NCBI GenBank assembly: GCA_027532775.1
Contig: JAPZTO010000006.1
Location: 136,047 to 200,046, forward strand
Source of the DNA: Beijerinckiaceae bacterium
GTDB lineage: Bacteria > Pseudomonadota > Alphaproteobacteria > Rhizobiales > Beijerinckiaceae
Reading direction: 5' to 3'
DNA length: 64,000 nucleotides
The position numbers and the translations under genes were made by a program. Positions 10,709 to 57,660 of the stretch are shown in pieces; position 1 is the stretch's first letter; each line of letters starts with the position of its first letter. Below the pieces are notes generated by a model. That model saw nothing but the letters and a program-made list of their open reading frames with translations, ran no database searches and was not told the origin of the DNA.

Positions 10709-10748
10709 CTCGCCCCCTGCAGGCTTATGGGATGAAGCGGCAGGCCGC

Positions 10749-12041: not shown

Positions 12042-12471
12042 ACCATGCCCCTTGCGTTACCCGGCGCTCATGTGAATCGGACGCCGTTTGTCCCGTCTTC
12101 ACCATTTTGCAGAGCCGATTACGCCATGCAACCGTCACATTTCCGGAGCGCCCGCGCCCTCGAAAGCCATGCTGCACTGCCAAATCCTGCAAATTGCCGG
12201 GGTTTCCGAGGGGGTCCGGAGAAAATCGTCCGGAAATTTGGTTCATGGGTGAACTTTGCCCGACAATCCGACCGGAGTCACGAGGTCCGGTTGCCCCCAA
12301 ATCTTCCGATCCCGGTCATGCTTTTGTAACTAGTGTTGCGCGTCGACAACAATCGGCCGGCGACCGTCCGCTTTTTCGCGAAGACCACGCGAAGTCCCGC
12401 CTTGCAAAGCCCTGACGTTCAGCGTTCTATGCGGCGGGGGAGTACGATCAAGGCGTGATGCGGGGTATCCA

Positions 12472-13320: not shown

Positions 13321-13332
13321 GCACCGGCAGGA

Positions 13333-14316: not shown

Positions 14317-14363
14317 CAGGGTTCTCCCGCCCCGAAACATCGCCCGAACATGGCAAGGAAGCG

Positions 14364-39013: not shown

Positions 39014-39951
39014 ATACCCCTGCCGAAGTCCTGATGCTGTTCGGCGGCATTCTCGCCGTGCTGGTTGTGGCCACCACAATCGGCCAGGTTCTGGCACGCC
39101 GCGTCGGGCCAGAACCCAGCCCTACGATCGAGAACCTGAACCAGCGCATCCTCGCCTGGTGGGTGATGGTGGGACTGATCGGACTCGCCTTCCTGTTCGG
39201 CAAGACGGGCGTGATCCTGCTGTTTGCATTTACATCCTTCGCGGCCCTGCGCGAATTCCTGACATTGACACCGACCCGGCTCGGCGACCATTGGGCGCTG
39301 CTGGCAGCCTTCCTCGTCGTTCTGCCGGTGCAGTATTACCTGATCTGGATCGAGTGGTACGGGCTCTATTCGATCTTCATCCCCGTCTATGCCTTCCTGC
39401 TGCTGCCGATCATCGCGGCAGTCAGCGGTGACACAACGCGATTTCTGGAGCGTGTCGCCTTCGTCCAATGGGGGCTGATGATCACGGTGTTTTGCGTGAG
39501 CCATGTCCCGGCATTCCTGACGCTGGATATTCCCGGCCATGCCGGCAAGCAGGTCCTGCTGGTCGCCTTTCTCGTGATCGTGGTGCAGGGCTCCGATGTC
39601 CTGCAATACGTGTTCGGCAAGCTCTTCGGCCGTCACAAGGTGGCGCCGAGCCTTTCACCCTCCAAGACATGGGAGGGCCTGATCGGCGGCGTGGCCTCGG
39701 CGAGCCTTGTCGGCGCAGGGTTATGGTGGATCACGCCCTTCTCACCCTTCCAGGCGGGAATCATCGCGCTGATCGTCTGCCTGATGGGCTTTTTCGGCGG
39801 GCTCGTCATGTCGGCCATCAAACGGGATCGTGGCGTGAAGGATTGGGGTCGGATGATCGAGGGGCATGGCGGCATGCTTGACCGCCTCGACAGCGTGATC
39901 TTCGCTGCCCCGATCATGTTCCACATCACGCGGTACTGGTTCAGCGCGTAG
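39010..39951 (+). CDS. Phosphatidate cytidylyltransferase, CdsA paralogue (YnbB-like)
   Basis: SDVLQYVFGK, SPSKTWEG, IKRDRGVKDWG, GHGGMLDRLDS. Confidence 0.92.
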   Translation: MNTPAEVLMLFGGILAVLVVATTIGQVLARRVGPEPSPTIENLNQRILAWWVMVGLIGLAFLFGKTGVILLFAFTSFAALREFLTLTPTRLGDHWALLAAFLVVLPVQYYLIWIEWYGLYSIFIPVYAFLLLPIIAAVSGDTTRFLERVAFVQWGLMITVFCVSHVPAFLTLDIPGHAGKQVLLVAFLVIVVQGSDVLQYVFGKLFGRHKVAPSLSPSKTWEGLIGGVASASLVGAGLWWITPFSPFQAGIIALIVCLMGFFGGLVMSAIKRDRGVKDWGRMIEGHGGMLDRLDSVIFAAPIMFHITRYWFSA

Positions 39952-40951
39952 CCGGGCGCCAGGGCGAATCCGGCCGGATGAACCGGGCGATCTCGGCCAA
40001 CGGGATCTCTGCCGACTCGGCAGGTGGGCTCAAGGTGGTCCAGGAGACGGTCACCTTGTCCGCTCCGAAGGCCCAGATCACGCCCTTGCCACCGGAGAGG
40101 ATCTCCTCGAGCCGCTCGTCCAGTTCGTCGGGCCGGTTGATGTCGCGGCGCAGCGCTTCGTGCATGACCTTCCGCCAATTGGCATTCCGCTCGAAGACCG
40201 CGGAAAGCGACACGGGAGCGCCCGTCATCATGTCAATGTTCAGACCGACATCCCGGTCGGGGACCGCCGTGCCGGCATCGACATGCTCGTTGAACTGCAG
40301 GCTCAGAAGGCGTTGCCCAAGATAGGAAACCGCGTAGGTCCGGGTCACGGCACCGTTCAGCGTAATCCGGCCGGCGATCAACGGCTTCTCCGGGGCGATC
40401 ATGCGGCGCAGGGCCGCCTCGAAGGCCTTCATGGCCGGTTCCGGCGCGCCGGACATCACCGGCATGACATCCTCCGTGATCCACCCCATGCGCCGGTCCG
40501 ACGGATCATCCGCCGGGTGGATCCGGAATTCGGTTCGCAGCCTTGGCTCGATTCGGATACCGTCCACCGTGACGACCGACAGCCCGGCCAGGTGCCCGGC
40601 TCTCTGGGTCATCAATTCGGCGAGGCACTGCGAAACCTCGCCCAGAGCATCTGGCTTACGGGCGCGATCGACAGCGCAGAGCCGGTCCGCATAGGCATTG
40701 AACTGGCGCTGCGATTCCTTCAGCGCCGCAGCTTGTGGTGGCGACAGCCTGCTCAGGAGCGGCGCATAGGCCGCGGCCATTTCCGAATCGGTCCGGCGAG
40801 CGTCCTCCGTGGCGCAGGTCGCGCGCTCGCGGGCGGTCACCGCCTTCCGGCAATCGAAGCTGGCGGGTGTCTCGGGAGCCTGGGCAAAAGCCGAGAAGGC
40901 TGTGCCGGCAAGAAAAACGGCCGCACGAGCGGCCGGAGTCAGAATACGCAT
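39941..40951 (-). CDS. Exported protein with N-terminal LprI/DUF1311-like domain
   Basis: Signal peptide then ASFDCRKA..ERATC...D..MAAAY, LKESQRQF, CLAE; start ATG 40951 after GGAG. Confidence 0.7.
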   Translation of the reverse strand: MRILTPAARAAVFLAGTAFSAFAQAPETPASFDCRKAVTARERATCATEDARRTDSEMAAAYAPLLSRLSPPQAAALKESQRQFNAYADRLCAVDRARKPDALGEVSQCLAELMTQRAGHLAGLSVVTVDGIRIEPRLRTEFRIHPADDPSDRRMGWITEDVMPVMSGAPEPAMKAFEAALRRMIAPEKPLIAGRITLNGAVTRTYAVSYLGQRLLSLQFNEHVDAGTAVPDRDVGLNIDMMTGAPVSLSAVFERNANWRKVMHEALRRDINRPDELDERLEEILSGGKGVIWAFGADKVTVSWTTLSPPAESAEIPLAEIARFIRPDSPWRPATR

Positions 40952-40992
40952 CGGAGGTTCTCCCTCGGGGGCAAGGGCAGCGGCTTGGAGGA

Positions 40993-41412
40993 TCAGGCGG
41001 CGTTCGGCAGGGCATCGGGAGCGGCAAGGCGCGGAACAAGTTCGCCGAGCAGCTTGCGCCAGGCCTGTTCGGCACTGGCAGTGAATTCTTCCTCGAACCG
41101 GCTGCGCAGGGTCGCGACAAGCGCTTCGGCCAGAACAAGCAGGACGTGAAGCGGCACCCGACCACCGGCACGATCGAGATAGCTTTCGAGCAAGGCCTCG
41201 AGCCGCTCGGGTCGGTCGAGCAGACCAGTCACCATGTCGATCGCGGGGGGGATCTCGATGCGGAGGTTCTGGACATCGCGAGGCAGATGGCCGCGCATCC
41301 AGGGATTGGCCCAGCAGGCCCGGGCAAGGCACTCGGCGCCGAAGGCATGGCCGAGCATGGCGACTTCGCCGGCCTGGCGACGGATCAGGGCAAGTTCGGC
41401 TTCATTCAGCAT
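40993..41412 (-). CDS. Globin-fold-like protein lacking the proximal His
   Basis: MLNEAELALIR A-helix start and LAEALVATLRSRFEEEFTASAEQAW G/H helices; no His at the expected F8 position. Confidence 0.6.
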   Translation of the reverse strand: MLNEAELALIRRQAGEVAMLGHAFGAECLARACWANPWMRGHLPRDVQNLRIEIPPAIDMVTGLLDRPERLEALLESYLDRAGGRVPLHVLLVLAEALVATLRSRFEEEFTASAEQAWRKLLGELVPRLAAPDALPNAA

Positions 41413-41867: not shown

Positions 41868-42548
41868 TCACTCCCCGGCGAGGCGTCCTGCCCGATCAAG
41901 CACGGCGGGCCAGACCGGCTTGTTCGCATAGCGCTGGACGATGGCGGCATGAGCGGCCTTCGCGCCGTCACATTGCCGGGCGTTGCCCTCCTCCACCAGC
42001 TGCTGGCGCCGCGCAGCGGGAATGTCGGCCTTGAGGCCTTGCTTCACGCCGAGACAGGCCTCCAGCCGACCGAGATGCTGGCGGATATCTTCCGGGATGG
42101 TGGCGTCAGCCGGGCCCGGCTTGCTGTCGCCGGTTTCCTTGAGAGCGCGAAAGGCCAGGCCGGGATCATAGGCTTTCAGTGGCTCACCATCGCCATCCGG
42201 CTGCCAGTAGCTGTAGGTCACGGCTTTCTCGTTGTATGTGAGCACTTCGAGGTAGGTGACCGCGCCGTTCTGACGCAGCGTCATGTGGACCTCGCTGGAA
42301 GGGCGCTTTGCGGTGGCAAGGTATTTTGTCGCGGAGACCCGGCGCGCCTTCCAGTTCTCGCTGGTGCCCTTCTTGCGCAACACGGCTAGTTCCTCAGCCT
42401 CGATGCCTTCCGTGGTGTTGTCGAACACTTCGGCTGGCAGCAACGGCAGCCATTCCGCAATCACTTTCGATGAAGGCGGCTTGGCCGATGCCGTCGCCAC
42501 GACCAGAAGCGATATCGTGGCGGTGGCAGCCAGGCAGAGCATTTTCAT
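41868..42548 (-). CDS. Hypothetical exported protein
   Basis: Signal MKMLCLAATATISLLVVATASA; C-terminal Cys pair (ACLG...RQCD). Confidence 0.65.
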   Translation of the reverse strand: MKMLCLAATATISLLVVATASAKPPSSKVIAEWLPLLPAEVFDNTTEGIEAEELAVLRKKGTSENWKARRVSATKYLATAKRPSSEVHMTLRQNGAVTYLEVLTYNEKAVTYSYWQPDGDGEPLKAYDPGLAFRALKETGDSKPGPADATIPEDIRQHLGRLEACLGVKQGLKADIPAARRQQLVEEGNARQCDGAKAAHAAIVQRYANKPVWPAVLDRAGRLAGE

Positions 42549-42793
42549 CAGCAATTTCCTTCCTGTTGATCAGGCGTGTGCGGGCCGGTACGGTTCATCT
42601 TGCCCTGATCTGGCATGCGAGCGTTCCGGGGCGCCGTGCGATGTGACACATGCCAAGATGGCATAAGCGCGCGGGTGGCAGAAAGGGTGCTGAAATAATC
42701 GCTGCAACAGATGGCATCGCCGTGAAATGCGGCGCAGCCATCCTTGCAGCATGAAGACCGGGCCCGACCCAGCCCGACCGCCGGAGATCTGCC

Positions 42794-43123
42794 ATGCCCA
42801 ACCCTCGCTTCCTCCACCGTCTCGCCGTCGGCTTTAGCGTCGCAGGGGGGACCCTGCTGGCCATTTCCACGGCCTCGGCATTCTTCTGCTATGTGCCTGA
42901 AAAGCCGGAAGGCCCGGTGGCACTGCGCGAACGCCCCGATCCACAGGCGAAGATCGTCGCGATGATGCCGCCTGGCGGTATGGTTCGGGAAGTAAAGGGA
43001 AATTCCCGCCACAAGGAATGGGTCCAGGTCCTCTGGATTGCAGATCAGGCCCAGCAGAAGAAGGTGACCGGCCGTGGCTGGGTGGTCCACAGCCAGATCC
43101 ATGGCGGCGAATGCGAGGACTGA
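42794..43123 (+). CDS. Exported bacterial SH3-like domain protein
   Basis: Signal peptide; VALRERPDPQAKIV, EWVQV, GRGWV. Confidence 0.72.
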   Translation: MPNPRFLHRLAVGFSVAGGTLLAISTASAFFCYVPEKPEGPVALRERPDPQAKIVAMMPPGGMVREVKGNSRHKEWVQVLWIADQAQQKKVTGRGWVVHSQIHGGECED

Positions 43124-43227: not shown

Positions 43228-45921
43228 TTGACGTCGGTTCTGGATGGATCGGGAACGGATTTATGGCCGTCGCGTTGGGAATGGCGGCCGGACGACGACT
43301 CGCTCCTTATCGGCGCAGGGCTTGGCCGCCTGCTTGGCTGGCAACCCGGTGAAACGGGCATCGGTGCGCGATTCGTGGCCCGCGTCCATGCCGAGGATCT
43401 CGCCCGCCACCAATCCGAAATGCGAAAACTGTTGCGCGGCGAACCAGGCTTTACCTGCGCTTCGCGCGTGCTGGCCGCCAATGGAATCATGCTCTGGCTG
43501 TTCCTCTCGGCGCAGGCGGAACGCGACGGTTGCGGCCGCGTCACCCTCGTCAGGGGTCATGCGCATGTGATCGAGGAACCGCGTCATGGTACCGCCGTGC
43601 CAGGGCTGCCTTTTGCGGTGGCAGACCTGTTCTCGGCCGGAATCGCCGCTCTCGAAGCGAGCGAGGCCGAAAAAACAAGGCGGCTTGCGGCCGAGGAGAG
43701 CGCGTTCTCGCAGCGCGAGTTCCTGTCAACCGTGAGCCACGAGATCCGGAACCCGCTGACTGTCATCTTTGCCAATATCGGCATGCTGCGTGCCCGCGCC
43801 GAACAGCAACGCGACACGGGGCTGCTGCAGCGCCTGGCCGCCCTGGAGCGGGCGGGCAAACACCTGCGCGACCTCGTTTCCGACGTGCTCGATCTCGCGA
43901 AGATCGAAGCCGGCCACCTGACGGTGGAGCCGGAGTGGTTCGAGCTGGAGCCCTTGCTGCTCGAGATCGAGGAAATGGGCAATGCGCTGACGCGGGACAA
44001 CGGCGTGATGTTCCTGCTCGATACGCCGCTTGATCTCGGCCGCATGATGGGCGACCGGCTGAAACTGAAGCAGATCATGCTCAACCTCGTCGGAAATGCC
44101 GCCAAGTTCACCCGCGAGGGTCGAATCACGCTCAGCGTCATTGATGGCGGAAGCAGCCTCATCTTCGCCGTTTCGGATACGGGCCCGGGCATCCCGCCGG
44201 ACCGGCTCGACACTCTCTTCAAGGCCTTTTCGCAAGTCGGCGGTTCGAATGCGCCCCGCGCTGCGGGGACCGGGCTGGGGCTCTACATTTCCGAACGATA
44301 TGTCCGCATGCTGGGCGGACGCCTGTCCGTGAGCAGCCGGCTCGGAGAGGGCAGCACGTTCGACTTTGCCCTGCCCCGGGTGCTCCAGCCCGAAGTCATG
44401 CGCGTTCCGCCGGCCCGCTGCGAGAACCGGCTGGTCATCGGCCATACCGAGGATCTGGGCACGCTCGATCCGCATCTGCAGATGCGGGCCACGAATGCGA
44501 TGATCGCACGCCATCAGTTCGATTCGCTGACCGCGATGGACTCGACCGGGCGGCTGCGGCCTGGGCTGGCGGAGAGCTGGGAGCCGCTCGGCACCGAGGG
44601 CTGGCGGTTCACCCTGCGCCGCGGCGTGAGCTTTCATGACGGAACGCCCTTTGATGGCGAGGATGTGCTGGCGACCTTCGATCGGCTCAGGAAACTCGGC
44701 GGACCCTATGCCAGCTTTCTCAAGTCGATTACCCGCGTTGCATTGCCGGAGCCATACCGCCTCGATGTGTTCACGGATGGCGCCCAGCCCTTGTTGCCGA
44801 TCGATCTCAGTCTGCTCTCGATCATCAATCGACGGTTCCGCGACGCGGAGACCGCCGCATTCGACCGGCTGGAGGCCACACTCGGCACAGGTCCCTTCCG
44901 GCTCAAGGCCCGGCTTGGTTCCCGAACACTGCAGTTCGACGGGTTTCCGGCATATTGGGGCGGGCCACCCGAATGGGAACAACTGGAGTTCAGGCTGATC
45001 GATGAAAGTGGACTGGCCAGCGTCAGTGCCCTCCTCGCCGGCGAGGTGGACCTGATCGACAATGTCGGGCCGGACCAGTATCTCGACCTGCAGCGACGTG
45101 ATGACGTCATGCTGTCGACTTGCGAGAGCAACCGGGTCTGGTATCTGTTCTTTGACCAATCGCGTGATGCCTCGCCTTTTATCACGGATCGGTCAGGCAA
45201 GCCGCTGGATCGCAACCCGCTGAAGGATCCGCGGGTCAGACGGGCGATTTCACTCTCCATCGACCGGGAGTTCATCACGACGCGCCTGATGGCCGGCCAG
45301 GGGACGCCGTTGGGCGACGTCGCCGGGCCAGGTATCTTCGGCGTCAACCCCGCTTTGACTCCGCCCCTCTTTGATCCGACAACGGCGCGGCGGCTGATGG
45401 CCGAAGCGGGATATCCGGACGGGTTCGGCATTACCCTGCACGGCTCACGGGACCGGTCTTTCCACGGAGCGACCACGCTCAGGGCCATCGCCCTGATGCT
45501 CAACGCCATCGGCATTCTGTGCAAGCCGGAAGCCTTGGCTGCCGCCGAGTTTTACCCGCGCGCGGCCAAGCGCGATTTCAGCTTCGGCTTGTCGGGTTGG
45601 GGATCGGTGACCGGCGAGACATCGTACACCCTTCGCCTGCTGCTCTGCTCTCCGGACACGGCACGTGGCTTTGGCGGAGCGAATCGCGGTGGTTACGCCA
45701 ACCCGGATCTCGATGCGATTGTGGGAGAGGCCGTGCGGACGATGGACGACGATGTGCGTCGTCGGCTGCTCGAACGTGCCTCCGCCATCGCCATGGGCGA
45801 TGTAGCGATTGCTCCGATCTGTGCACGCCGTACCACCTGGGCGATGAAGAAAGGCCTGCGCTATGAAGCGCAAATGGATGGAGCGCTCCTCGCGATGGCT
45901 GCCCGCCGCGCGCGCGATTGA
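43228..45921 (+). CDS. PAS-HisKA-HATPase histidine kinase fused to a C-terminal family-5 solute-binding domain
   Basis: PAS_3 (WEW, VHAED, NGIMLW); H-box FLSTVSHEIRNPL, N-box NLVGNAAKFT, DTGPGI, GTGLGL; then TLDP...LAESWE..WRFTLRRGVSFHDGTPFDGEDV, GTGPF (SBP_bac_5). No TM segment or signal peptide. Confidence 0.88.
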   Translation: MTSVLDGSGTDLWPSRWEWRPDDDSLLIGAGLGRLLGWQPGETGIGARFVARVHAEDLARHQSEMRKLLRGEPGFTCASRVLAANGIMLWLFLSAQAERDGCGRVTLVRGHAHVIEEPRHGTAVPGLPFAVADLFSAGIAALEASEAEKTRRLAAEESAFSQREFLSTVSHEIRNPLTVIFANIGMLRARAEQQRDTGLLQRLAALERAGKHLRDLVSDVLDLAKIEAGHLTVEPEWFELEPLLLEIEEMGNALTRDNGVMFLLDTPLDLGRMMGDRLKLKQIMLNLVGNAAKFTREGRITLSVIDGGSSLIFAVSDTGPGIPPDRLDTLFKAFSQVGGSNAPRAAGTGLGLYISERYVRMLGGRLSVSSRLGEGSTFDFALPRVLQPEVMRVPPARCENRLVIGHTEDLGTLDPHLQMRATNAMIARHQFDSLTAMDSTGRLRPGLAESWEPLGTEGWRFTLRRGVSFHDGTPFDGEDVLATFDRLRKLGGPYASFLKSITRVALPEPYRLDVFTDGAQPLLPIDLSLLSIINRRFRDAETAAFDRLEATLGTGPFRLKARLGSRTLQFDGFPAYWGGPPEWEQLEFRLIDESGLASVSALLAGEVDLIDNVGPDQYLDLQRRDDVMLSTCESNRVWYLFFDQSRDASPFITDRSGKPLDRNPLKDPRVRRAISLSIDREFITTRLMAGQGTPLGDVAGPGIFGVNPALTPPLFDPTTARRLMAEAGYPDGFGITLHGSRDRSFHGATTLRAIALMLNAIGILCKPEALAAAEFYPRAAKRDFSFGLSGWGSVTGETSYTLRLLLCSPDTARGFGGANRGGYANPDLDAIVGEAVRTMDDDVRRRLLERASAIAMGDVAIAPICARRTTWAMKKGLRYEAQMDGALLAMAARRARD

Positions 45922-45933
45922 GCCATTGCCGGC

Positions 45934-46302
45934 TCAGGCGGCTTCCTCGATACCATCCGAGACAAGGGCAAAGGCGCTGCTCCAGGCTGATCGCGCTGGA
46001 CCGGTGAAGCCATCGCCGATCACTTCCTGCAGGGTATCCAACAGCGCGATTCCCATGGACGCGCAGATCTCGGGGCTATAGCGCATGCCGGCCTGCTCGC
46101 AGGCAGCCACCAGCAACTCGGCAAGGAAGCCGTGCGGGGTTTCCGCGCGGCTGGTCAGGCTGGCGAGCCAATTGCCTTGCGGCGCCCCGCTGGGCAGCAG
46201 CCCGGGCGTGATGCGGCCGAAAACAGCCGCAAAACGCTCGGCCCGCATGGACAGCGTAACAAGCTGGTCTTCCATCAGACGTTGGTCATTCGTGATCAGC
46301 AT
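45934..46302 (-). CDS. Second globin-fold-like protein lacking the proximal His
   Basis: C-terminal MGIALLDTLQEVIGDGFTGPARSAWSSAFALVS matches single-domain globin G/H helices; start ATG 46302. Confidence 0.62.
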   Translation of the reverse strand: MLITNDQRLMEDQLVTLSMRAERFAAVFGRITPGLLPSGAPQGNWLASLTSRAETPHGFLAELLVAACEQAGMRYSPEICASMGIALLDTLQEVIGDGFTGPARSAWSSAFALVSDGIEEAA

Positions 46303-46402: not shown

Positions 46403-47128
46403 TCAGTCGCCGACGAACACGTATCCGACGCCCCGTACGGTCTTGATGTATCGTGGCGTGTCGGGATTCGGCTCGATTTTCTTGCGAAGCCGGGTAATGC
46501 GGATGTCAACGGCGCGTTCTGTGTCCCCCGTATCGCCATTGCCGGAATAATCGAGAATCTGGCTACGCGAGAGCGGCCTCCCGGCCCGCGTGGCGAGCAC
46601 CATCAGCAGGTCCAGTTCCAAAGCGGTCAAATCCATGGGCGCGCCCTTCGGGTCGAGCAGTACCCGCGAATCGAGGTCGAGCACCATACCGCCAAAGCGC
46701 AGACGTTTGCCGGAAGGTTCAGGCGCGACCGCCGCAGTTGGCGCGACTGCGGCCGGCAACCGGCGCAAGACACTGCGGACGCGTGCGAGAACCTCCCGCA
46801 ATTCGCATGGCTTGACGATGTAATCGTCCGCGCCGAGTTCGAGGCCGATAATGCGATCGATCGGCGTGCCTGCGGCGGTGGCAAAGATAATCCCGGTCCG
46901 GAACCCCTTGCCCCGGAGCCAGCGCGCAACGGAGAGCCCGTCCTCGCCGGGCATCGCGATATCGAGGACCGCAAGATCAAACGGCGCGGCCTCGATCGCC
47001 TCCCGGAACGTGCTGCCGCGGGCAAAGCCCTCGACCTCAAAACCGTTCATGGCGAGATATTCGACCACGGCATCGCGCAGATCGTCCTCGTCATCGACTA
47101 CGGCGATCCGCTTGTGATCTTCGGCCAT
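46403..47128 (-). CDS. OmpR-family response regulator
   Basis: AVVDDE, VLDIAMPGEDG, GADDYIVKP, VDIRITRLRKKIE, IKTVRGVGY. Confidence 0.93.
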   Translation of the reverse strand: MAEDHKRIAVVDDEDDLRDAVVEYLAMNGFEVEGFARGSTFREAIEAAPFDLAVLDIAMPGEDGLSVARWLRGKGFRTGIIFATAAGTPIDRIIGLELGADDYIVKPCELREVLARVRSVLRRLPAAVAPTAAVAPEPSGKRLRFGGMVLDLDSRVLLDPKGAPMDLTALELDLLMVLATRAGRPLSRSQILDYSGNGDTGDTERAVDIRITRLRKKIEPNPDTPRYIKTVRGVGYVFVGD

Positions 47129-47287: not shown

Positions 47288-47971
47288 ATGGCCTCACGCG
47301 GCCGGATCATCCTTATCGACGATGAAATCGACCTGATCAGCGCCTTCGCGGAGTATCTGGTCGATCGCGGGTTCGATGCTGTCGCTGCCGATGGCGCCTA
47401 TGCCTTTGACGGGCTGGTGGCACAGCGCAAGCCAGACCTCGTGGTCCTCGATCTCGCCATGCCAGGCGAATCCGGCCAGGAGTTGCTGCTGCGCATCCGG
47501 GCAGGCAGCGATATTCCCGTCATCATCATGACCGGGCGGGCGGAACTCGTCGACCGGGTCCTCTGCCTTGAGATGGGCGCTGACGACATCGTCCAGAAGC
47601 CCATCGAACCCCGCGAACTGGTGGCGAGGATCCAGGGCCTGCTCGACCGGCGGCAGGGCCGACCACGCGATATCGTCCGGCTCGAGCGGACCACGGTCGA
47701 TCTGCGTGCCGCCCTCGTCATGCATGATAACGGTACCGAGGAACGGTTGACGATCAGCGAGATCATGCTGTTCCGCGCCTTCCTGGCCAACCCGTACAAG
47801 TTGCTGACACGAGACGAGATTCTCGATCTCGCCCCGGCCCAGGACCGGGATGCGCTTGACCGTTCGGTGGATCCGCGCGTCGCACGGCTGAAACGTAAGC
47901 TCGCTACAGAGTCGATCGAAACTCGGCGGGGACACGGCTATGTCTATGTTCCGAAGGCCGAAAAATCATAA
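47288..47971 (+). CDS. OmpR-family response regulator
   Basis: ILIDDE, VLDLAMPG, GADDIVQKP, DRSVDPRVARLKRK, TRRGHGY. Confidence 0.92.
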   Translation: MASRGRIILIDDEIDLISAFAEYLVDRGFDAVAADGAYAFDGLVAQRKPDLVVLDLAMPGESGQELLLRIRAGSDIPVIIMTGRAELVDRVLCLEMGADDIVQKPIEPRELVARIQGLLDRRQGRPRDIVRLERTTVDLRAALVMHDNGTEERLTISEIMLFRAFLANPYKLLTRDEILDLAPAQDRDALDRSVDPRVARLKRKLATESIETRRGHGYVYVPKAEKS

Positions 47972-48026: not shown

Positions 48027-49964
48027 ATGCCCCCCCCCTCATCCGCGTGGCTTGATGCGTTGCAGATGCCTGACGGCCAAGCGCTCCGCGCCCTCATCGA
48101 TGCCTGTCCGTCACGCGTTTCCGTTGTCACAGCGGACCATCGCTATCTCTATGCCAACCCCGAATTCCTGAACTTCATTGGGATTCCCCTTGAATCCTTG
48201 ATCGGCCGTGCGGCACGGGATGTGTTGGGACAGGATGTCTATGCTGCGTTCTCGGCAACGGCTCGCCAACTGAGGCCGGACCATTCACCGCGCTGGGAGG
48301 GCTGGATCAACTTCGCGAATGGGGCAAGGCGCAACATCGAGGTCACGATGGTGCCCTACACCCCCGTGGGGAACGTGATCGACGCGATTTTTGTCTTCGC
48401 GCGCGATCTCAGCGACGTGAAGCAGCAAGAACAGGAATTGCGGGAGAGCCTCGCAAGCCTGCAGCAGTCAGAATCTGCTCGCAACGCGTCCGAACAGGTC
48501 AACACCCAGATTGTGCGGAGTGCACTGGACGCATTCATCCTTGCGGACAGCGACGGCAAGATCCGCGACTTCAACCCCGCTGCCGAGGACATGCTCGGCT
48601 ACCGGCGCGAAGACGCGGTCGGAAAGCTGCTTTCTGAGCTGATCATCCCGCATGAGCACAGGGCTGCCCATGATGCCGGCATGAAGCGGTACATGGCCAC
48701 CGGTGTCTCGCGTGTGCTGGGCAAACGCATGCAACTCGAGGCGCTGGCCGTCACCGGCGAGCGCATTCCAGTCGAAGTCACGCTCAACGAGGTCAAGCTC
48801 CCCGACCAGCATCTCTTCACGGCGCATATGCGCGACCTGCGTGAAAGCCGACGCCAGCAGGCGGAAATCGAGGCGCAACGCTCGCGCATTACCCAGATCG
48901 AGAAACTCTCCGCGATGGGTTCATTGCTCGCGGGGGTTGCACATGAACTGAACAACCCGCTCGCCATTCTGCTTGCACAGGCGACCCTACTGCGCGAGAA
49001 GGCACCGTCCGGTGACATCCGGCAGCGGGCAGAGCGGATCCATGCAGCTGCAGAGCGCGCGGGCCGTATCGTCAAGAGCTTCCTGGCTCTCGCGCGCGAG
49101 AAGCCACCAGTCCGCGAGCTGTCGGACCTGAACCAGGTTATCGACAACACCCTGCAAATGCTTGCCTATGGCCTGCGGACAGCGGGAATCGAGGTTGAAA
49201 AGCACCTCGATCCGGGCATGCCGAGGCTCAGAATCGATTCCGACATGATTGGCCAGGTCATCGCCAATATCGTCCTGAACAGCCAGCAGGTTCTGATGAA
49301 CCACCCGAGGCCGCGGATCCTGACGCTGCGGACCCATGCTGCAATCGATCATGCGACACTCGAAATTGCGGATAACGGCCCCGGCGTGCCCGCCGAGGTG
49401 GCCGACCGGATCTTTGACCCTTTCTTCACAACCAAGCCGGCCGGTGTCGGCACCGGCATCGGGCTCGCGATCTGCAAGGACATTATCCAGGCGCATGGCG
49501 GCAAACTCGAGCTGGCGTCCGGCCCGGCACGCGGCGCTCTGTTCCGGATCACGCTTCCGCATGCGGCGGAGGAACCGGCGAATGCTGAGAGCGCGGAAGA
49601 GCAAGGGGCGGGCGAGCGCATCCTGGTGGTGGATGATGAAGTGGATGTCGGGGAGAGCCTCGGCGAAATCCTCGATGCACTGGGCCATCGCGTTACAGTG
49701 ACAGCCTCTGCTCTGCGGGGGCTCGACATGCTGCGCGCGGAACCCTTTGACCGCGTGTTTGTGGATCTCCGGATGCCGGAGATCAGCGGACATGAATTCC
49801 TGAGGGAGCTGCACGAGATGCAGCCTGCCGTGGCGGCCCGCAGCGTGCTGATGACCGGCGATACGGTCCGGGGTCCGGCAACGCTTCTCGGAGGGGTCGA
49901 TGTCCATGTGATGGAGAAGCCGTTTTCCTTCGACGACATCCGCACGGCCCTCGCCCGCGCCTGA
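48027..49964 (+). CDS. Soluble PAS-PAS hybrid histidine kinase with C-terminal receiver
   Basis: Two PAS domains (YLYANP; FNPAAEDMLGY...IIP), AGVAHELNNPL, DNGPGV, FFTTKPAGVGTGIGL, receiver LVVDDE/VDLRMP/EKPF. Confidence 0.93.
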   Translation: MPPPSSAWLDALQMPDGQALRALIDACPSRVSVVTADHRYLYANPEFLNFIGIPLESLIGRAARDVLGQDVYAAFSATARQLRPDHSPRWEGWINFANGARRNIEVTMVPYTPVGNVIDAIFVFARDLSDVKQQEQELRESLASLQQSESARNASEQVNTQIVRSALDAFILADSDGKIRDFNPAAEDMLGYRREDAVGKLLSELIIPHEHRAAHDAGMKRYMATGVSRVLGKRMQLEALAVTGERIPVEVTLNEVKLPDQHLFTAHMRDLRESRRQQAEIEAQRSRITQIEKLSAMGSLLAGVAHELNNPLAILLAQATLLREKAPSGDIRQRAERIHAAAERAGRIVKSFLALAREKPPVRELSDLNQVIDNTLQMLAYGLRTAGIEVEKHLDPGMPRLRIDSDMIGQVIANIVLNSQQVLMNHPRPRILTLRTHAAIDHATLEIADNGPGVPAEVADRIFDPFFTTKPAGVGTGIGLAICKDIIQAHGGKLELASGPARGALFRITLPHAAEEPANAESAEEQGAGERILVVDDEVDVGESLGEILDALGHRVTVTASALRGLDMLRAEPFDRVFVDLRMPEISGHEFLRELHEMQPAVAARSVLMTGDTVRGPATLLGGVDVHVMEKPFSFDDIRTALARA

Positions 49965-50046: not shown

Positions 50047-50667
50047 TCAGAGCACGACCACGCGGGTGCCGACCCGGACACGGTTGTAGAGGTCGGTCAC
50101 GTCCTCGTTCAGCATCCGAATGCACCCCGAGGACACCGCCTCGCCGATGGATTCCGGCTCGTTGGAGCCATGGATCCGGTAGATCGACGAGCCGAGATAC
50201 AGGGCCCGGGCTCCGAGGGGGTTGTCCTCGCCGCCCTTCATATGGGTCGGCAGATCGGGACGGCGCTTCAGCATGGCTGCCGGCGGGCGCCAATCCGGCC
50301 ATTCCTGCTTCATCGAGACGGTGTGCGAGCCGGTCCAGCCGAAGCCCGGCCGACCGACGCCGACCGCGTAGCGAATGGCCTTGCCATTTTCGAGGACCAG
50401 GTAAAGCCGGCGCTCTGCGCTGTTTACCACGATGGTCCCGGGGACATGGCTGGTCTGGTACTCGACGACCGTCGGCGGGATGACGGGCCGCACGGGAGCC
50501 GAGGCGCGGTAGGGTTCAAGGTGCTTCGGATTCATGACCGAGGCGACCTGGACAGGGTTTCCTTCGGCGCGGGCGGCCGGGCTGGCAAGCGCCATGCCGG
50601 CGCCGAGGGCGACAGCGAGGGTCAAGGGAAGGAAGCGGGTGAAGCGATGGTTGGGACGGAAGGACAT
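50047..50667 (-). CDS. L,D-transpeptidase (YkuD/ErfK family)
   Basis: NPLGARALYL, RIHGSNEP, SSGCIRM; signal peptide. Confidence 0.94.
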   Translation of the reverse strand: MSFRPNHRFTRFLPLTLAVALGAGMALASPAARAEGNPVQVASVMNPKHLEPYRASAPVRPVIPPTVVEYQTSHVPGTIVVNSAERRLYLVLENGKAIRYAVGVGRPGFGWTGSHTVSMKQEWPDWRPPAAMLKRRPDLPTHMKGGEDNPLGARALYLGSSIYRIHGSNEPESIGEAVSSGCIRMLNEDVTDLYNRVRVGTRVVVL

Positions 50668-51020: not shown

Positions 51021-52382
51021 ATGATCAATGCCGCTCGCATTCCCGACACGCTCGCCCTCGCCATTCTGGCTGGCGTCGCACTTTCTCCCGTCACGTCCAC
51101 CTTCGCGCAGGGCGCAGGCCCGTCTCCCGAGCGCTGCACCGCTGACGGCATCGACTGGGCCAAGTCTGCCGTCTATGCCCGCGCCCGCCATTTCTCCGAT
51201 GCCGGACGGGAACCTCGCGCGCCGGTCATCTGCACGGTGACCCGCGTGGTCGAGGCCAAGCTGGGCCAAACACTGCTCCGGCTGACCGAGGGCCGACTCA
51301 ACATGGAAAAGGCCGATGGCGTCCAATTGCCGGTCCGGTTGATCGATGTCGCCCGGATGGAGGCCGATGGCCCGCGCTCGCTGGCGAGGCTGCTGCTGGA
51401 TGGTGACCCTGTGAACCGGGCAGAGATTTTCGAACCGCAGTTCAACAACGCGGATGGTACGATCCTCGTCCGGCTCGCGCCGCGGCATGACTGGATTTTC
51501 GCCGTGACGGGCAACACCGTCACCGCCGTGCCGGCCTTTGACTGGCAGGAACAGGTCCGGGCGACGCTGCCGGCGGACCAGCGCCATGGCCGCGTGCTGT
51601 CCATCGATGTCGAGCGCATGGAAGGGCGGCTGGCCCTGCGTCGCTCCGGGACGAATCCGGCAGAGCCACTGCCAAGCGCCTTCGAGGACAGCCGCATGGC
51701 GGTCGCGAAACTTGCCTTCCGCAACGGCAAGCTGGAGGTCGACTCCACAACCATTGCTGCGCGAAAGCCCGATGACGAGTTGCTGTTCGCCGAGTTTGCC
51801 GACTCGGAAGAGGACATTCGCAAGAAGGCAGGCAAACTGCCGCCGCGGGTTGAGCCTTGCGCGCTGGGCGGGTGGTCGAACGACACTGACCGGAAGGGCC
51901 TGAATGTCCGGGCAGCGCCAAATGCTGCTGCTCCGGTCCTCGGCATCGTTCCGCCGCCACGCCGGGACAGGCAGACCGAGAACGAGTTCGGGCCCGATCC
52001 GATCAAGGCCGAATTTACAGTCCTCGGCTTTCGTGACGGCTGGTTCCTGATCGGCGAAATCACCGCCCCCGGCGTGGCTTACGGCGTCGCTTATCCCCGC
52101 AAGGCACCCAAACCCTACAAGGGGCAGGGCTGGGTCCATGCGCGGCTGGTCGGCGGCGCGTTGGCCAATGGTGGCTTGCCGACCGGCCAGTTGCATGTGT
52201 CGCCGCATGCCGATTCCGCGACGCTGGAGGTTCGTGACGAGGATGGAAACCCGATCGGCCTTGATGGCACGCCCTTTACCCTTCTCGCTTGCTCGGGCCG
52301 ATGGGGCCTCGTGGAGTTCAAGGGCGGCAAGCGCGGCTGGTGGCGCTCGATCTGCTCGAATCAAGTCACGAACTGCAGCTGA
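51021..52382 (+). CDS. Exported protein with two C-terminal SH3-like repeats
   Basis: Signal peptide; DTDRKGLNVRAAP, RDGWFLI, GQGWVHARL, CSGRWGLVE..GWWRSICSNQVTNC. Confidence 0.7.
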   Translation: MINAARIPDTLALAILAGVALSPVTSTFAQGAGPSPERCTADGIDWAKSAVYARARHFSDAGREPRAPVICTVTRVVEAKLGQTLLRLTEGRLNMEKADGVQLPVRLIDVARMEADGPRSLARLLLDGDPVNRAEIFEPQFNNADGTILVRLAPRHDWIFAVTGNTVTAVPAFDWQEQVRATLPADQRHGRVLSIDVERMEGRLALRRSGTNPAEPLPSAFEDSRMAVAKLAFRNGKLEVDSTTIAARKPDDELLFAEFADSEEDIRKKAGKLPPRVEPCALGGWSNDTDRKGLNVRAAPNAAAPVLGIVPPPRRDRQTENEFGPDPIKAEFTVLGFRDGWFLIGEITAPGVAYGVAYPRKAPKPYKGQGWVHARLVGGALANGGLPTGQLHVSPHADSATLEVRDEDGNPIGLDGTPFTLLACSGRWGLVEFKGGKRGWWRSICSNQVTNCS

Positions 52383-52428: not shown

Positions 52429-52752
52429 ATGAAACGCAGCTTTTCCTTTGCCGGTGCGATGGCCGGCCTTCTCGTGGTGATTGCGGGCGCCATGCCCGCT
52501 GGAGCCACCGGCTTCTGCCATCTCCGCAAGACCGCAGACGGCTTCGTGGCCTTGAGAGCCGAGCCGAGTCCGGCAGCGAAAATGGTCGGCCGGATGCGCC
52601 CGAGCGACGAAGTGCTCATCGGAGAAGGCGAGAAGGGGCAATGGGTCGAAGTGACGTGGTGGCGCGGCACCGAGCGCCTCGACAAGGGATTCGAGAAGCA
52701 TGCCGGAAAAGGCTGGGTCAATCGCCGCCTGATCGCCGATGATTGTGGCTGA
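52429..52752 (+). CDS. Exported bacterial SH3-like domain protein
   Basis: AAGGAG RBS; DGFVALRAEPSPAAKMV, QWVEV, KGWV; paralogous to 42794-43123. Confidence 0.72.
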   Translation: MKRSFSFAGAMAGLLVVIAGAMPAGATGFCHLRKTADGFVALRAEPSPAAKMVGRMRPSDEVLIGEGEKGQWVEVTWWRGTERLDKGFEKHAGKGWVNRRLIADDCG

Positions 52753-52928: not shown

Positions 52929-53006
52929 CGGAGTGTAGCGCAGCCTGGTTAGCGCACTAGTCTGGGGGACTAGGGGTCGTGGGTTCGAATCCCGCCACTC
53001 CGACCA
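52929..53006 (+). tRNA. tRNA-Pro (GGG)
   Basis: Cloverleaf: CGGAGTG/CACTCCG acceptor stem, GCGC D-stem, CTAGT-CTGGGGG-ACTAG anticodon arm, GTGGG-TTCGAAT-CCCGC T-arm, encoded CCA. Confidence 0.97.
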
Positions 53007-56358: not shown

Positions 56359-57660
56359 TCAGCCCCCGCGCGAAAGAGGGATAACGTTTTCCGGTCGCGT
56401 GTCCTCCCCCATTGCCGCAACGAGGGTCGCACCAATCGCATTCGAGGCGCGGCGCAATGGATCATCGGCAAGATGCGCGTAACGCTGGGTCGTGGTGGGT
56501 TGCTTATGCCCAAGAAGCTTTCCGACAATCTGCAAGCCCATGCCGCCGCCGGCACCGAAGCTGGCGAAGGTATGTCGCAAGTCATGTAAGCGAACACCTT
56601 CCAAGCCGGCGCGGCGCGCAACTGAGCGCCATGGCCGATGCAGGTCAGCGCGCGGCTTTTCATTCTCCTGCCCGGCACTTTCGCCGGCGATGACATATCG
56701 GCCTAATCGAGGCAATTTCGCCAACACGTCGAGGGCAGGCGCATTGAGGATGACGATTTTCCGACCACTCTTTGAATCCGGCAAAAGCAGGATACCGCGC
56801 TCGAAATCGATATGCGTCCATTCGAGATTGAGGATTTCCCGCAACCGGCAACCGGTCAGGATGAGAAGCCGCAATGCTGCCGCCGCATGCTCACCAATTT
56901 TTGCAACGCGGTTTTCAGCCTTGGGCGCGTGCTTCGCCTTCTTTGCCGGGTCCGGCTCCCAAGGAATGCCGTCGCGTTCAGCCTCACGGATTGCGTCACC
57001 AAGCCGGGCCAATTCCTCCGATGTCAGGTAGCGTTCACGCGGGCTTTCCGGAAACGGCTTAATGCCTTTCGTTGGGTTGAAGCCTTCCGCAACAAGACCT
57101 GTCTCCTCCGCATAGCGATAGAAGCCGGATAGCGCGACGATGACGCGGTTTGCAGTCACAGCCCTTGTCGCTCCCAAATCAGCGTGCAGCCGCCGAACCG
57201 CTTCGCGCGACACGTCCGCCAGCTTCTTTTTTCCAATGCGGGGCAGAATGTGCTTGTTGAAGTAAAGAGCCATCAAGTTGCGGCTCGACGCTTTCAGATG
57301 GAGCATGCCGCGCGCCTCGTAAGTCTCGAAAACGGCCTCAACGGTTTCAGCCTTGCGCGATTCCTTACGCGTTCCCGCCGGGTCCTGACCGAGGCGAACC
57401 AATGCCAAAAGCCGCCTCGCCTCGCTTCGCGCGGCATCGGCCTCCAGAGTATGCGCCGAACCAATCTTGAACCGCCGCACAGCAACACCGCGCCCGCCTT
57501 CACCGGGTCGATATTCGATAACCCAAGATTTCTCGCCGGACGGATAGACGCGAAGTCCGAAGCCCTTCACATCGCTGTCGCGCAAGGTGAAGCGCGCGGT
57601 TTCGGGCTGGGCCGCGTCAACGGCCCTCTTGGTCAGCTTTACGGCGGGGCGATGAGCCAT
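56359..57660 (-). CDS. Tyrosine recombinase/integrase with N-terminal arm-binding domain (P4-like)
   Basis: N-terminal RDSDVKGFGLRV..KSW arm domain; catalytic R (TGCRLRE), K (SKSG), HDLRH, LLGH, Y (QRYAH). Confidence 0.96.
   Translation of the reverse strand: MAHRPAVKLTKRAVDAAQPETARFTLRDSDVKGFGLRVYPSGEKSWVIEYRPGEGGRGVAVRRFKIGSAHTLEADAARSEARRLLALVRLGQDPAGTRKESRKAETVEAVFETYEARGMLHLKASSRNLMALYFNKHILPRIGKKKLADVSREAVRRLHADLGATRAVTANRVIVALSGFYRYAEETGLVAEGFNPTKGIKPFPESPRERYLTSEELARLGDAIREAERDGIPWEPDPAKKAKHAPKAENRVAKIGEHAAAALRLLILTGCRLREILNLEWTHIDFERGILLLPDSKSGRKIVILNAPALDVLAKLPRLGRYVIAGESAGQENEKPRADLHRPWRSVARRAGLEGVRLHDLRHTFASFGAGGGMGLQIVGKLLGHKQPTTTQRYAHLADDPLRRASNAIGATLVAAMGEDTRPENVIPLSRGG

What the first reader, a model, noticed from the sequence alone, without database searches (positions are those of the whole stretch)
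43228..45921. Soluble histidine kinase fused to a family-5 solute-binding protein
Seen: one uninterrupted 897 aa ORF containing PAS_3, an intact HisKA/HATPase, and then, where a receiver would normally sit, a complete SBP_bac_5 (DppA/OppA-like) domain of about 500 aa. There is no TM segment, no signal peptide, no internal signal peptide at the junction (EVMRVPPARCENRLVIG) and no adjacent ABC permeases. Known: family-5 SBPs are normally extracytoplasmic; SgrR-type regulators show that the fold can be used in the cytoplasm as a sensor. Inference: a cytoplasmic kinase gated by a peptide, metal-chelate or metabolite ligand through a C-terminal SBP. I do not know a characterised example of this architecture.
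Basis: partly seen in the sequence, partly recalled or inferred. Interest (0 to 1): 0.85.

Follow-up and report, generated by a model that had tools for sequence, protein, structure and literature searches.

The report
Soluble histidine kinase with cytoplasmic solute-binding domain
This is a real, conserved but rare gene in which a soluble bacterial sensor kinase carries, inside the cell, a complete "transporter-type" ligand-binding clamshell in place of that protein's export signal; it probably senses an internal small molecule and sits in a conserved signalling cluster next to cell-wall genes.

Summary
ORF 43228-45921 (+) encodes 897 aa: PAS, HisKA, HATPase_c, a 17-residue linker, then a full SBP_bac_5 domain. 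It has no membrane segment or signal peptide, and no ABC permease lies nearby.

It is not an assembly artefact. About 35 protein clusters at 51-80% identity share the architecture with a gap-free, fixed-length junction. Six more distant clusters at 28-36% identity share the same geometry.

The nearest free binding proteins (about 40% identity) carry Sec or Tat signal peptides. The fused domain starts exactly at their mature N-terminus.

All catalytic kinase motifs are invariant, and the binding domain is as conserved as the ATPase domain. The family is rare and patchy:
- 3 of 23 species in the genus carry it.
- 2 of 400 other sampled genomes of the class carry it.
- About 7 of 1.84 billion 50%-identity clusters have the architecture.

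The gene travels with two divergent OmpR-type regulators and a PAS hybrid kinase. In closer relatives it also travels with a YkuD L,D-transpeptidase and secreted SH3b-like proteins.

Best reading: a cytoplasmic ligand-gated kinase. The ligand is unknown; peptide, muropeptide and metal chelate all remain possible. I found no described example. I rate it a new variant of a known kind.

The parts
42794..43123 (+). Small secreted SH3b-like protein (109 aa), 104 bp upstream of the kinase on the same strand
   Evidence: It is 34% identical (E 7e-11) to the SH3_3-positive ORF at 52429-52752. Homologues occur in arrays near the fusion in L081, L083, L087 and L103.
43228..45921 (+). The whole HK-SBP5 fusion gene (897 aa, TTG start)
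   Evidence: An identical protein (P0002) is on record from 2 contigs. The genome holds a single copy.
43261..43572 (+). N-terminal PAS domain (residues about 12-115)
   Evidence: Pfam PAS_3 at residues 34-110, 25.7 bits. The AlphaFold2 model shows a PAS-like sheet with pLDDT 82-92. It is the least conserved part (39% mean pairwise identity) and is absent in P0021/P0022 and most distant subfamilies.
43711..43914 (+). HisKA / DHp domain with the phospho-accepting His171 (SHEIRNPL)
   Evidence: Pfam HisKA, 58.7 bits. His171 is invariant in 29 close and 10 distant sequences. Mean pairwise identity is 75%.
44050..44379 (+). HATPase_c catalytic domain (N, G1, F and G2 boxes)
   Evidence: Pfam, 93 bits. 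N286, N290, D317, G319, G321, G347 and G349-G351 are invariant.
44380..44430 (+). Fixed-length 17-residue linker (VLQPEVMRVPPARCENR)
   Evidence: The length is constant in 28 of 29 close members (one has +1) and is kept to within one residue in distant subfamilies. The sequence is only 41% conserved, and it has no hydrophobic stretch.
44431..45921 (+). Complete SBP_bac_5 (cluster C, DppA/GsiB-like) domain without signal peptide
   Evidence: Pfam, 206 bits. Best PDB sequence match is 5u4o at 1.8e-40, then GsiB/YliB and DppA. Foldseek target-normalised TM-score is 0.90. The domain begins at the position of the mature N-terminus of free relatives that carry Sec or Tat signal peptides. Mean pairwise identity is 67%, equal to the CA domain.
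46403..47128 (-). RR1, an OmpR-family response regulator (241 aa from the internal Met)
   Evidence: Pfam Response_reg plus Trans_reg_C. Orthologues at 66-76% identity lie next to the fusion in L001, L081, L083, L087, L101 and L103, and at 51-52% in L084 and L086.
47288..47971 (+). RR2, a second OmpR-family response regulator, divergent from RR1
   Evidence: Pfam. It is co-conserved with RR1 in the same loci. The divergent intergenic region has conserved blocks (CTTGAC, TGYAACCRAAY) among close relatives.
48027..49964 (+). HK2, a soluble PAS-PAS-HisKA-HATPase_c-REC hybrid kinase
   Evidence: Pfam. Within the genus, orthologues at 72-73% identity occur in exactly the same 3 of 23 species as the fusion, and next to it.
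50047..50667 (-). YkuD-type L,D-transpeptidase with signal peptide
   Evidence: Pfam YkuD, 6.7e-24. Orthologues at 64-81% identity lie near the fusion in L001, L081, L083 and L103.
51021..52382 (+). Secreted SH3_3-containing protein (about 453 aa from Met61 of the 513-aa ORF)
   Evidence: Pfam SH3_3, 1.2e-07. Orthologues at 48-54% identity occur in L001, L081, L083, L101 and L103.
52429..52752 (+). Second small secreted SH3b-like protein (about 107 aa)
   Evidence: Pfam SH3_3, E 1.1e-4. It is a paralogue of 42794-43123.

Best explanation
The gene encodes a soluble, cytoplasmic class-I (HisKA) sensor histidine kinase. Its defining sensor is a complete family-5 solute-binding (Venus-flytrap) domain, joined by a short fixed-length linker to the C-terminus of the ATP-binding domain. 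The fusion arose when a kinase replaced the signal peptide of a DppA/GsiB-like binding protein, probably once, and it has since been kept under strong purifying selection.

Inferred mechanism: a cytoplasmic small molecule binds in the cleft between the two lobes. Lobe closure, passed on through the 17-residue tether, changes how freely the catalytic domain reaches His171. That shifts the balance between kinase and phosphatase activity.

The kinase most likely signals to one or both of the adjacent divergently transcribed OmpR-type regulators (RR1, RR2). It shares them with the neighbouring PAS hybrid kinase HK2, so the locus would be a two-input, two-regulator module. In the closer relatives the likely targets are the flanking envelope genes: a YkuD L,D-transpeptidase and secreted SH3b-like proteins.

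Shown: gene integrity, domain content, cytoplasmic topology, conservation, rarity and synteny. Inferred: ligand binding, gating of the kinase, partner regulators and regulon.
For: - Domains and fold.
- Catalytic residues: His171 and the N, G1 and G2 boxes are invariant across 29 close and 10 distant members.
- Recurrence: about 35 clusters at 51-80% identity have the same Pfam architecture. Six further 50%-identity clusters at 28-36% identity share the same junction geometry, as does one genome hit (G328).
- Selection: the SBP part is as conserved as the CA domain (0.67 against 0.67), while PAS is variable (0.39) and is dispensable in several members. The linker length is fixed.
- Signal peptide: free relatives have Sec or Tat signal peptides, and the fused domain starts at their mature N-terminus.
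- Topology: no TM segment.
- Origin: in a maximum-likelihood tree, all 30 fused SBP domains fall on one side of a branch with 100/96 support against 10 free SBPs.
- Pocket-region motifs: those shared with transport SBPs are retained. GW..TGE aligns with the DppA GWTGD408 region and GsiB GWSASTGE, and an invariant Arg743 lies beside the DppA Arg355 loop.
- Module: the two regulators and the hybrid kinase are beside the fusion in 6 of 8 loci looked up by exact protein, and also in L001 and G001 (G015/L103 duplicates L081).
- Co-inheritance: the fusion and HK2 are present or absent together in the genus, in 3 of 23 species.
- Precedent for a cytoplasmic SBP_bac_5 sensor: SgrR and DsvR (bioRxiv 10.64898/2026.04.01.715812).
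Against: - No ligand is known, and no pocket residue could be mapped in three dimensions because model coordinates and PAE are not available.
- The HGSRDR motif of the main family is not kept in the distant subfamilies, so any ligand may differ between them.
- Sensor domains normally lie N-terminal to the DHp helix. I know of no established mechanism by which a domain placed after the CA domain gates a kinase.
- Two loci (L082, L085) and the distant G328 gene have no adjacent regulators.
- The RR-RR-HK2 core also exists without the fusion (G058), so pairing with RR1 and RR2 rests on guilt by association.
- No shared operator motif was found upstream of the presumed target genes.
- No expression or read data could be obtained.
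Confidence: 0.6

Rival explanations
1. The SBP domain no longer binds a ligand. It serves as a large protein-protein interaction or scaffolding domain, for example docking the partner kinase HK2, a regulator or another protein. The PAS domain, or HK2, would supply the real sensory input.
For: The SBP sits after the catalytic domain, where output or docking domains (REC, HPt) usually lie. The kinase always travels with a second, PAS-rich kinase. Pocket-loop motifs differ between subfamilies.
Against: PAS is the least conserved part and is lost in many members, while the SBP is always kept. Motifs shared with ligand-binding transport SBPs are conserved: GW..TG[ED], NRGxY and DPH. The complete two-lobe fold with its hinge is retained at high model confidence.
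Confidence: 0.2
2. The SBP domain senses a metal-chelate or metallophore rather than a peptide. The kinase would then report cytoplasmic metal status.
For: One of the closest free relatives sampled (P0043, Ralstonia, 39% identity) lies in a Fur/Zur-CobW-DksA-CobW cluster typical of zinc-starvation regulons. NCBIfam's only SBP-type hit among the 25 listed is the nickel SBP Opp5A/NikA. NikA and NikZ are among the fold matches. The main family has its own invariant or near-invariant His, Asp and Arg positions: H406, H738, D742, R743 and H746.
Against: Other close free relatives sit in ordinary Dpp-type peptide operons with M20 peptidases. The best structural and sequence matches are peptide or glutathione binders: 5u4o, GsiB, DppA and GbpA. 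No metal-homeostasis genes lie near the fusion in any locus.
Confidence: 0.12
3. The long ORF is an artefact: two genes (a kinase and an exported SBP) joined by a sequencing or assembly error, or a recent pseudogene-like fusion without function.
For: RefSeq names the one cultured-strain homologue simply 'ABC transporter substrate-binding protein'.
Against: The same in-frame junction with a fixed linker length occurs in more than 35 independent clusters from NCBI, JGI, ENA and Logan assemblies, down to 28% identity. No remnant of a signal peptide is present. Both halves are under equal and strong constraint.
Confidence: 0.01
4. The SBP domain is extracytoplasmic after all, through an unrecognised membrane segment or non-classical export.
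For: A borderline hydrophobic stretch (residues 124-142, Kyte-Doolittle mean 1.61) precedes the DHp helix.
Against: That stretch contains a conserved Asp and continues into the signalling helix. It lies upstream of the kinase, so it could not separate the ATP-dependent CA domain from the SBP. The 17-residue CA-SBP linker is polar and proline-rich.
Confidence: 0.02

Closest known systems
SgrR (E. coli) and DsvR/Vca0578 (V. cholerae): transcription factors with a C-terminal SBP_bac_5 domain
   Same: A complete family-5 solute-binding fold is kept in the cytoplasm, without a signal peptide, at the C-terminus of a signalling protein, and is presumed to act as the ligand sensor.
   Different: Their output is a directly fused winged-helix DNA-binding domain (a one-component system). 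Here the output is an ATP-dependent histidine kinase feeding separate response regulators. By Pfam, this protein has no HTH.
ChiS-CBP (Vibrio), plus TorS-TorT and LuxQ-LuxP
   Same: A histidine kinase is controlled by a solute-binding protein. In ChiS-CBP the binding protein is itself SBP_bac_5 (review PMC8050422). The kinase core here scores best against TorS and LuxQ models, though far below their cut-offs.
   Different: In those systems the binding protein is a separate, exported periplasmic protein that contacts the periplasmic domain of a transmembrane kinase. Here it is covalently fused, C-terminal and cytoplasmic, and the kinase is soluble.
BvgS/EvgS-type kinases with Venus-flytrap (SBP_bac_3) sensor domains
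   Same: A periplasmic-binding-protein fold is built into the kinase polypeptide as a sensor.
   Different: From my own knowledge of the family: the flytraps are family 3, N-terminal, periplasmic, and followed by a membrane helix. Here the domain is family 5, C-terminal and cytoplasmic, and there is no membrane helix.
Free DppA/GsiB-like SBPs of Alpha- and Betaproteobacteria (e.g. P0038-P0043; PDB 5u4o, 1uqw, 1dpp)
   Same: They are 36-44% identical over the whole SBP domain, have the same fold, and share the motifs DPH, GW..TGE and NRGxYSN.
   Different: They carry Sec or Tat signal peptides, and two of the three I looked up lie in or beside ABC-importer operons. The fused domains form their own clade.
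Cytoplasmic C-terminal SBP5 domains on chemoreceptors (e.g. M. xanthus McpK) and on Ser/Thr-kinase-STAND proteins, noted earlier in this scan
   Same: The design principle is the same: an internalised family-5 flytrap at the C-terminal end of a signalling scaffold. These are AI notes and were not checked here.
   Different: The signalling scaffold differs (MCP or Hanks kinase/STAND, against a HisKA kinase). Their relationship to the SBP domain described here was not tested.

Membership tests
Class I (HisKA-type) sensor histidine kinases | DHp domain with a phospho-acceptor His in an H-box | tested here: met
   Pfam HisKA at residues 162-229. His171 in SHEIRNPL is invariant in alignments A1 and A2.
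Class I (HisKA-type) sensor histidine kinases | Bergerat-fold ATP-binding domain with N, G1, F and G2 boxes | tested here: met
   Pfam HATPase_c, 93 bits. N286/N290, D317-G321 and G347-G351 are invariant.
Class I (HisKA-type) sensor histidine kinases | ATP-dependent autophosphorylation and transfer to a receiver Asp | not testable with these tools
   This needs biochemistry. Candidate receivers (RR1, RR2 and the HK2 REC domain) match the Pfam Response_reg model over its full length, and by eye they retain the acidic pocket, the phospho-acceptor Asp and the conserved Lys in their translations.
Hybrid histidine kinases | Receiver (REC) domain fused C-terminal to the catalytic domain | tested here: not met
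   The fusion protein has no Response_reg hit. An SBP_bac_5 domain follows the CA domain instead.
SBP_bac_5 / cluster C solute-binding proteins of ABC importers | Sequence and fold of the two-lobed family-5 binding protein | tested here: met
   Pfam, 206 bits against a cut-off of 32.4. PDB 5u4o at E 1.8e-40. Foldseek target-normalised TM-score 0.90.
SBP_bac_5 / cluster C solute-binding proteins of ABC importers | N-terminal signal peptide or lipobox and an extracytoplasmic location | tested here: not met
   The kinase occupies the place of the signal peptide. No hydrophobic segment is present. The junction Cys is not conserved.
SBP_bac_5 / cluster C solute-binding proteins of ABC importers | Genetic linkage to cognate permease and ATPase genes | tested here: not met
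   No BPD_transp_1 or ABC_tran genes were found in the window between about 38 and 64 kb. In 2 of 8 related loci a Dpp operon lies within 8 kb, but it has its own SBP.
SBP_bac_5 / cluster C solute-binding proteins of ABC importers | Binding of a ligand in the inter-lobe cleft | not testable with these tools
   There are only motif-level hints: GW..TGE, and Arg743 near the DppA Arg355 loop.
SgrR-family regulators | N-terminal winged-helix DNA-binding domain plus a C-terminal cytoplasmic SBP_bac_5 | tested here: not met
   No HTH domain is present. The N-terminal part is PAS plus a kinase. Only the cytoplasmic C-terminal SBP5 feature is shared.
BvgS/EvgS-type Venus-flytrap kinases | N-terminal periplasmic SBP_bac_3 domains followed by a transmembrane helix | tested here: not met
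   The domain here is family 5, C-terminal, and there is no TM segment.

The most novel reading that the evidence does not exclude
The fused flytrap binds a cytoplasmic peptidoglycan-turnover product, such as a murein tri- or tetrapeptide or D-Ala-D-Ala. The kinase, together with HK2 and the two OmpR-type regulators, would adjust expression of the neighbouring YkuD L,D-transpeptidase and secreted SH3b-like wall-binding proteins. That would make it a two-component counterpart of AmpR-type cytoplasmic muropeptide sensing, built from an internalised MppA/DppA-like receptor.
Probability: 0.18. Interest if true: 0.85.

Novelty: new variant of a known kind. Interest (0 to 1): 0.6.

Why it matters
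Histidine kinases are normally pictured with sensors N-terminal to the phospho-accepting helix. Family-5 binding proteins are normally pictured as extracytoplasmic feeders of ABC importers.

This family breaks both habits. It is soluble, and a 500-residue flytrap sits after the catalytic domain on a tether of fixed length. It therefore offers a compact, membrane-free system for asking how a domain placed after the ATP-binding domain can gate a kinase.

Alongside SgrR/DsvR, and the chemoreceptor and Ser/Thr-kinase fusions noted elsewhere in this scan, it suggests that internalised SBP5 domains are a recurring but unstudied class of cytoplasmic sensors.

Databases currently label the family 'ABC transporter substrate-binding protein', which hides it from censuses of two-component systems. 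The conserved link to an L,D-transpeptidase and SH3b proteins gives a concrete and testable hypothesis about cell-wall homeostasis in Hyphomicrobiales. A ligand-specific soluble kinase would also be attractive as a biosensor part.

Tried and rejected
- **Genome-contig scan.** The tool built its patterns from the kinase core, so 79 of 80 loci were ordinary kinases and only L001 was a true member. Four long matches (L011, L042, L067, L071) were tandem kinase genes, not fusions.
- **Names for homologues.** Only one of ten clusters carries a name (WP_088626249.1, Oceanicola sp. 22II-s10i, 'ABC transporter substrate-binding protein').
- **Shared operator.** The conserved TGYAACCRAAY block of the RR1-RR2 intergenic region is not enriched in the window: 6 matches against 3.7 expected. 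It is absent upstream of the fusion, ykuD and SH3 genes.
- **Promoter and terminator scan of 42.5-47.4 kb.** Nothing above background.
- **Lipobox-remnant idea for Cys398.** Rejected because the position is mostly Arg.
- **Named equivalogs for RR1, RR2, HK2, YkuD and the SH3 proteins.** All NCBIfam scores are far below the cut-offs.
- **Small ORF 45934-46302 as a globin sensor.** Only Pfam Globin at E 0.16, and no homologue in any related locus. Left as unproven.
- **Ligand inference from the context of free relatives.** Contradictory: a Zur/CobW cluster in one case and Dpp plus M20 peptidase operons in others.
- **Three-dimensional mapping of pocket conservation and CA-SBP contacts.** Not possible, because the structure tool returns no coordinates or PAE.
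Full report
**1. The observation**

ORF 43228-45921 (+) is the longest frame in its region and encodes 897 aa from a TTG start. A purine-rich GAGGGGG run lies just upstream. The N-terminus aligns with homologues that start MSSVLE....

Pfam finds four domains:
- PAS_3 at residues 34-110, marginal at 25.7 bits
- HisKA at 162-229
- HATPase_c at 275-384
- SBP_bac_5 at 443-807, 206 bits

The AlphaFold2 model, built on a 29-sequence alignment, has mean pLDDT 79.9, with 85-97 over most of the binding domain. Foldseek matches residues about 402-895 to complete cluster-C binding proteins: 5u4o with target-normalised TM-score 0.90, then GsiB/YliB, DppA, GbpA, NikZ and MppA.

The most hydrophobic 19-residue windows have a Kyte-Doolittle mean of 1.6 or less in this protein. 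They fall inside globular cores or in the helix that leads into the DHp domain. The 17-residue CA-SBP linker is polar and proline-rich. Because the catalytic domain needs ATP, the binding domain must be cytoplasmic.

No ABC permease or ATPase gene was found among the ORFs scanned between about 38 and 64 kb of the window.

**2. Not an artefact: a conserved, rare family**

A word-indexed search of 5.8 billion proteins returned about 35 clusters at 51-80% identity with the same four Pfam domains. They come from NCBI, JGI, ENA and Logan assemblies. The next hits are free 520-540-aa binding proteins at about 40% identity.

In the alignment of 29 members, the junction is gap-free and the linker length is fixed; only one member has a single extra residue.

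An exhaustive profile search of 1.84 billion 50%-identity representatives listed only seven clusters in its top 150 with one contiguous match spanning kinase and SBP. One is the main family; the other six are P0124-P0128 and P0197. Weaker fusions scoring below about 380 bits could have been missed.

Those six, plus a genome hit (G328, 810 aa), are 28-36% identical to the window protein. They still share the same junction geometry and invariant H, N, G1 and G2 boxes.

In a maximum-likelihood tree of the binding domains, all 30 fused copies sit on one side of a branch with 100/96 support, against ten free relatives. This is consistent with a single ancient fusion. The G328 branch is long, so that placement is less secure.

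**3. How the fusion was made**

The closest free relatives begin with Sec or twin-arginine signal peptides followed by DLRIAMGADVTSMDPHF-type mature N-termini. The fused domain begins NRLVIGHTEDLGTLDPHL at exactly that point. So the kinase took the place of the signal peptide and nothing else.

The Cys in the window's junction is Arg in most members, so it is not a lipobox remnant.

**4. Constraint**

Mean pairwise identity by region is as follows:

| Region | Mean pairwise identity |
|---|---|
| PAS | 0.39 |
| DHp | 0.75 |
| CA | 0.67 |
| Linker | 0.41 |
| SBP | 0.67 |

PAS is missing in P0021/P0022 and in most distant subfamilies. The SBP is never missing. The binding domain, not PAS, is therefore the defining accessory domain.

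Motifs that the domain shares with ligand-binding transport proteins are retained:
- DPH near the N-terminus.
- GWGSVTGE, aligned with DppA GWTGD408 and GsiB GWSASTGE.
- NRGGYSN.
- An invariant Arg743 next to the position of DppA Arg355. I counted the DppA residue numbers from the alignment; their role in dipeptide binding is from my own recollection of the DppA structures.

The HGSRDRSFHG loop is specific to the main family.

**5. Distribution**

The genome is 3.8 Mb, 99.7% complete, and has one copy. It belongs to an uncultured Hyphomicrobiales lineage. The best named matches to a housekeeping protein are Rhizobiales/Hyphomicrobiales bacteria at about 78% identity, and L001 is a Hyphomicrobiales MAG.

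- Only 3 of 23 species of the genus carry the gene.
- None of 38 other genera sampled in the family and order carry it.
- Among the 400 other genomes drawn evenly from the class, only G001 (also in the genus sample) and the distant G328 version were found.
- The only named homologue is WP_088626249.1 of Oceanicola sp. 22II-s10i, annotated 'ABC transporter substrate-binding protein'.

**6. Genomic context**

In 6 of 8 loci obtained by exact-protein look-up, the fusion lies beside two divergently transcribed OmpR-type regulators and a soluble PAS-(PAS)-HisKA-HATPase-REC hybrid kinase. These are the window, L081, L083, L084, L086 and L087. In L087 the hybrid kinase additionally has a dCache domain.

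tblastn shows the same order in the window and in L001: fusion, RR1, RR2, HK2, YkuD, SH3 protein. The same genes are present in G001, and in G015, whose locus L103 duplicates L081.

Within the genus, the HK2 orthologue (72-73% identity) occurs in exactly the three species that have the fusion, and next to it. The module is therefore inherited as a unit.

A related RR-RR-HK2 core exists without the fusion in G058. This suggests the fusion is an added second input.

In members at 64% identity or more, the cluster also includes some or all of the following:
- a secreted YkuD L,D-transpeptidase
- a secreted SH3_3 protein of about 450 aa
- one to several paralogous SH3b-like proteins of about 105 aa with a conserved N-terminal Cys. 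In the window these are 42794-43123, just upstream of the fusion, and 52429-52752.

Two loci (L082, L085) and G328 lack the regulators.

**7. Mechanism**

The evidence best supports a cytoplasmic ligand-gated kinase, at about 0.6. The flytrap binds an internal small molecule. Closure is then transmitted through the short, length-constrained tether to the catalytic domain, changing kinase or phosphatase output toward RR1 and/or RR2. HK2 provides a second input.

This is inference. No ligand, contact surface or phosphotransfer was or could be shown.

The ligand class is open:
- Fold and sequence neighbours are peptide or glutathione binders.
- One close free relative sits in a Zur/CobW zinc-starvation cluster.
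- Others sit in Dpp plus M20 peptidase operons.
- The envelope-gene neighbourhood suggests peptidoglycan-derived peptides. I give this about 0.18.

Rivals:
- The SBP is a ligand-free docking domain (0.2).
- The ligand is a metal chelate (0.12).
- The SBP is exported (0.02).
- The ORF is an artefact (0.01).

**8. Comparison with what is known**

Reviews of binding proteins in signalling treat only free, extracytosolic proteins acting on transmembrane receptors, including ChiS-CBP with a family-5 protein (PMC8050422; PMC10443332).

Cytoplasmic SBP_bac_5 domains are documented for the transcription factors SgrR and DsvR.

Full-text searches combining the SBP_bac_5 or PF00496 domain terms with histidine-kinase terms found no paper describing this architecture. 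The library lacks most subscription journals, and InterPro could not be queried. No NCBIfam model covers the protein.

Earlier notes of this scan report C-terminal cytoplasmic SBP5 domains on chemoreceptors and on Ser/Thr-kinase-STAND proteins. I did not test these; they suggest a broader design principle.

On membership, the protein meets the sequence-level definitions of a HisKA kinase and of the SBP_bac_5 fold. It fails three defining features: the export and permease-linkage features of transport SBPs, the receiver domain of hybrid kinases, and the HTH of the SgrR family.

**9. Verdict**

This is a real, intact and conserved but rare architecture that current annotation mislabels. It is best filed as a new variant of a known kind: a sensor kinase with a binding-protein-fold sensor, here family 5, cytoplasmic and C-terminal. 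Interest is 0.6. It is unusual for specialists and directly testable, but its function rests on inference.

Noticed in passing
window 52929-53003 and 56359-57660: A tRNA gene (Rfam, 62.5 bits) lies directly downstream of the signalling cluster. About 3.3 kb with few long ORFs follows, then a tyrosine integrase (Phage_integrase plus Arm-DNA-bind_3) on the minus strand. This is probably an integrated element at the tRNA. The signalling cluster lies on the other side of the tRNA.
   Followed up: partly
window 45934-46302 (-): A 122-aa ORF lies between the fusion and RR1. Its sequence pattern faintly resembles a globin (Pfam Globin, E 0.16 only). No homologue was found in any related locus; in L081 and L101 RR1 follows the fusion within about 10-25 bp. 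It may be a lineage-specific gene or not a gene at all.
   Followed up: partly
L081 16355-17368; L103 2589-3602; L087 10731-11380 and 13472-13735; L083 5660-5962, 11883-12191, 16249-16542: The roughly 105-aa secreted SH3b-like proteins form small tandem arrays (up to three in a row) around the signalling module in relatives. This looks like an expanding paralogous family of unknown function.
   Followed up: partly
L104 3071-8593: One of the closest free relatives of the fused SBP (P0043, Ralstonia, 72 member sequences) is an orphan SBP. It lies directly after a Fur-family regulator, two CobW-type GTPases and a DksA-like protein, an arrangement typical of zinc-starvation (Zur) regulons. This hints at a metallophore or metal-related ligand for that branch.
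   Followed up: no
L102 (G058:C1:3704000-3723900) 8622-14729: A genome without the fusion has the divergent RR1-like/RR2-like pair flanked on both sides by two HK2-like hybrid kinases (45-46% identity), another two-kinase/two-regulator arrangement.
   Followed up: partly
L082 and L083 (assembly GCA_036704275.1): One assembly carries two diverged fusion paralogues on different large contigs. P0015 has PAS, lies next to a Dpp operon and has no regulators. P0021 has no PAS and sits in the full regulator/YkuD/SH3 cluster. The assembly has more than 22,000 contigs, so it may hold more than one organism.
   Followed up: no
window 39941-41332 (-) and 41868-42554 (-): Upstream of the cluster lie an LprI (lysozyme-inhibitor) domain protein and a 228-aa secreted protein with no family match. 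The latter has a 43%-identical relative beside the regulators in L087. This is more envelope-related content around the module.
   Followed up: partly
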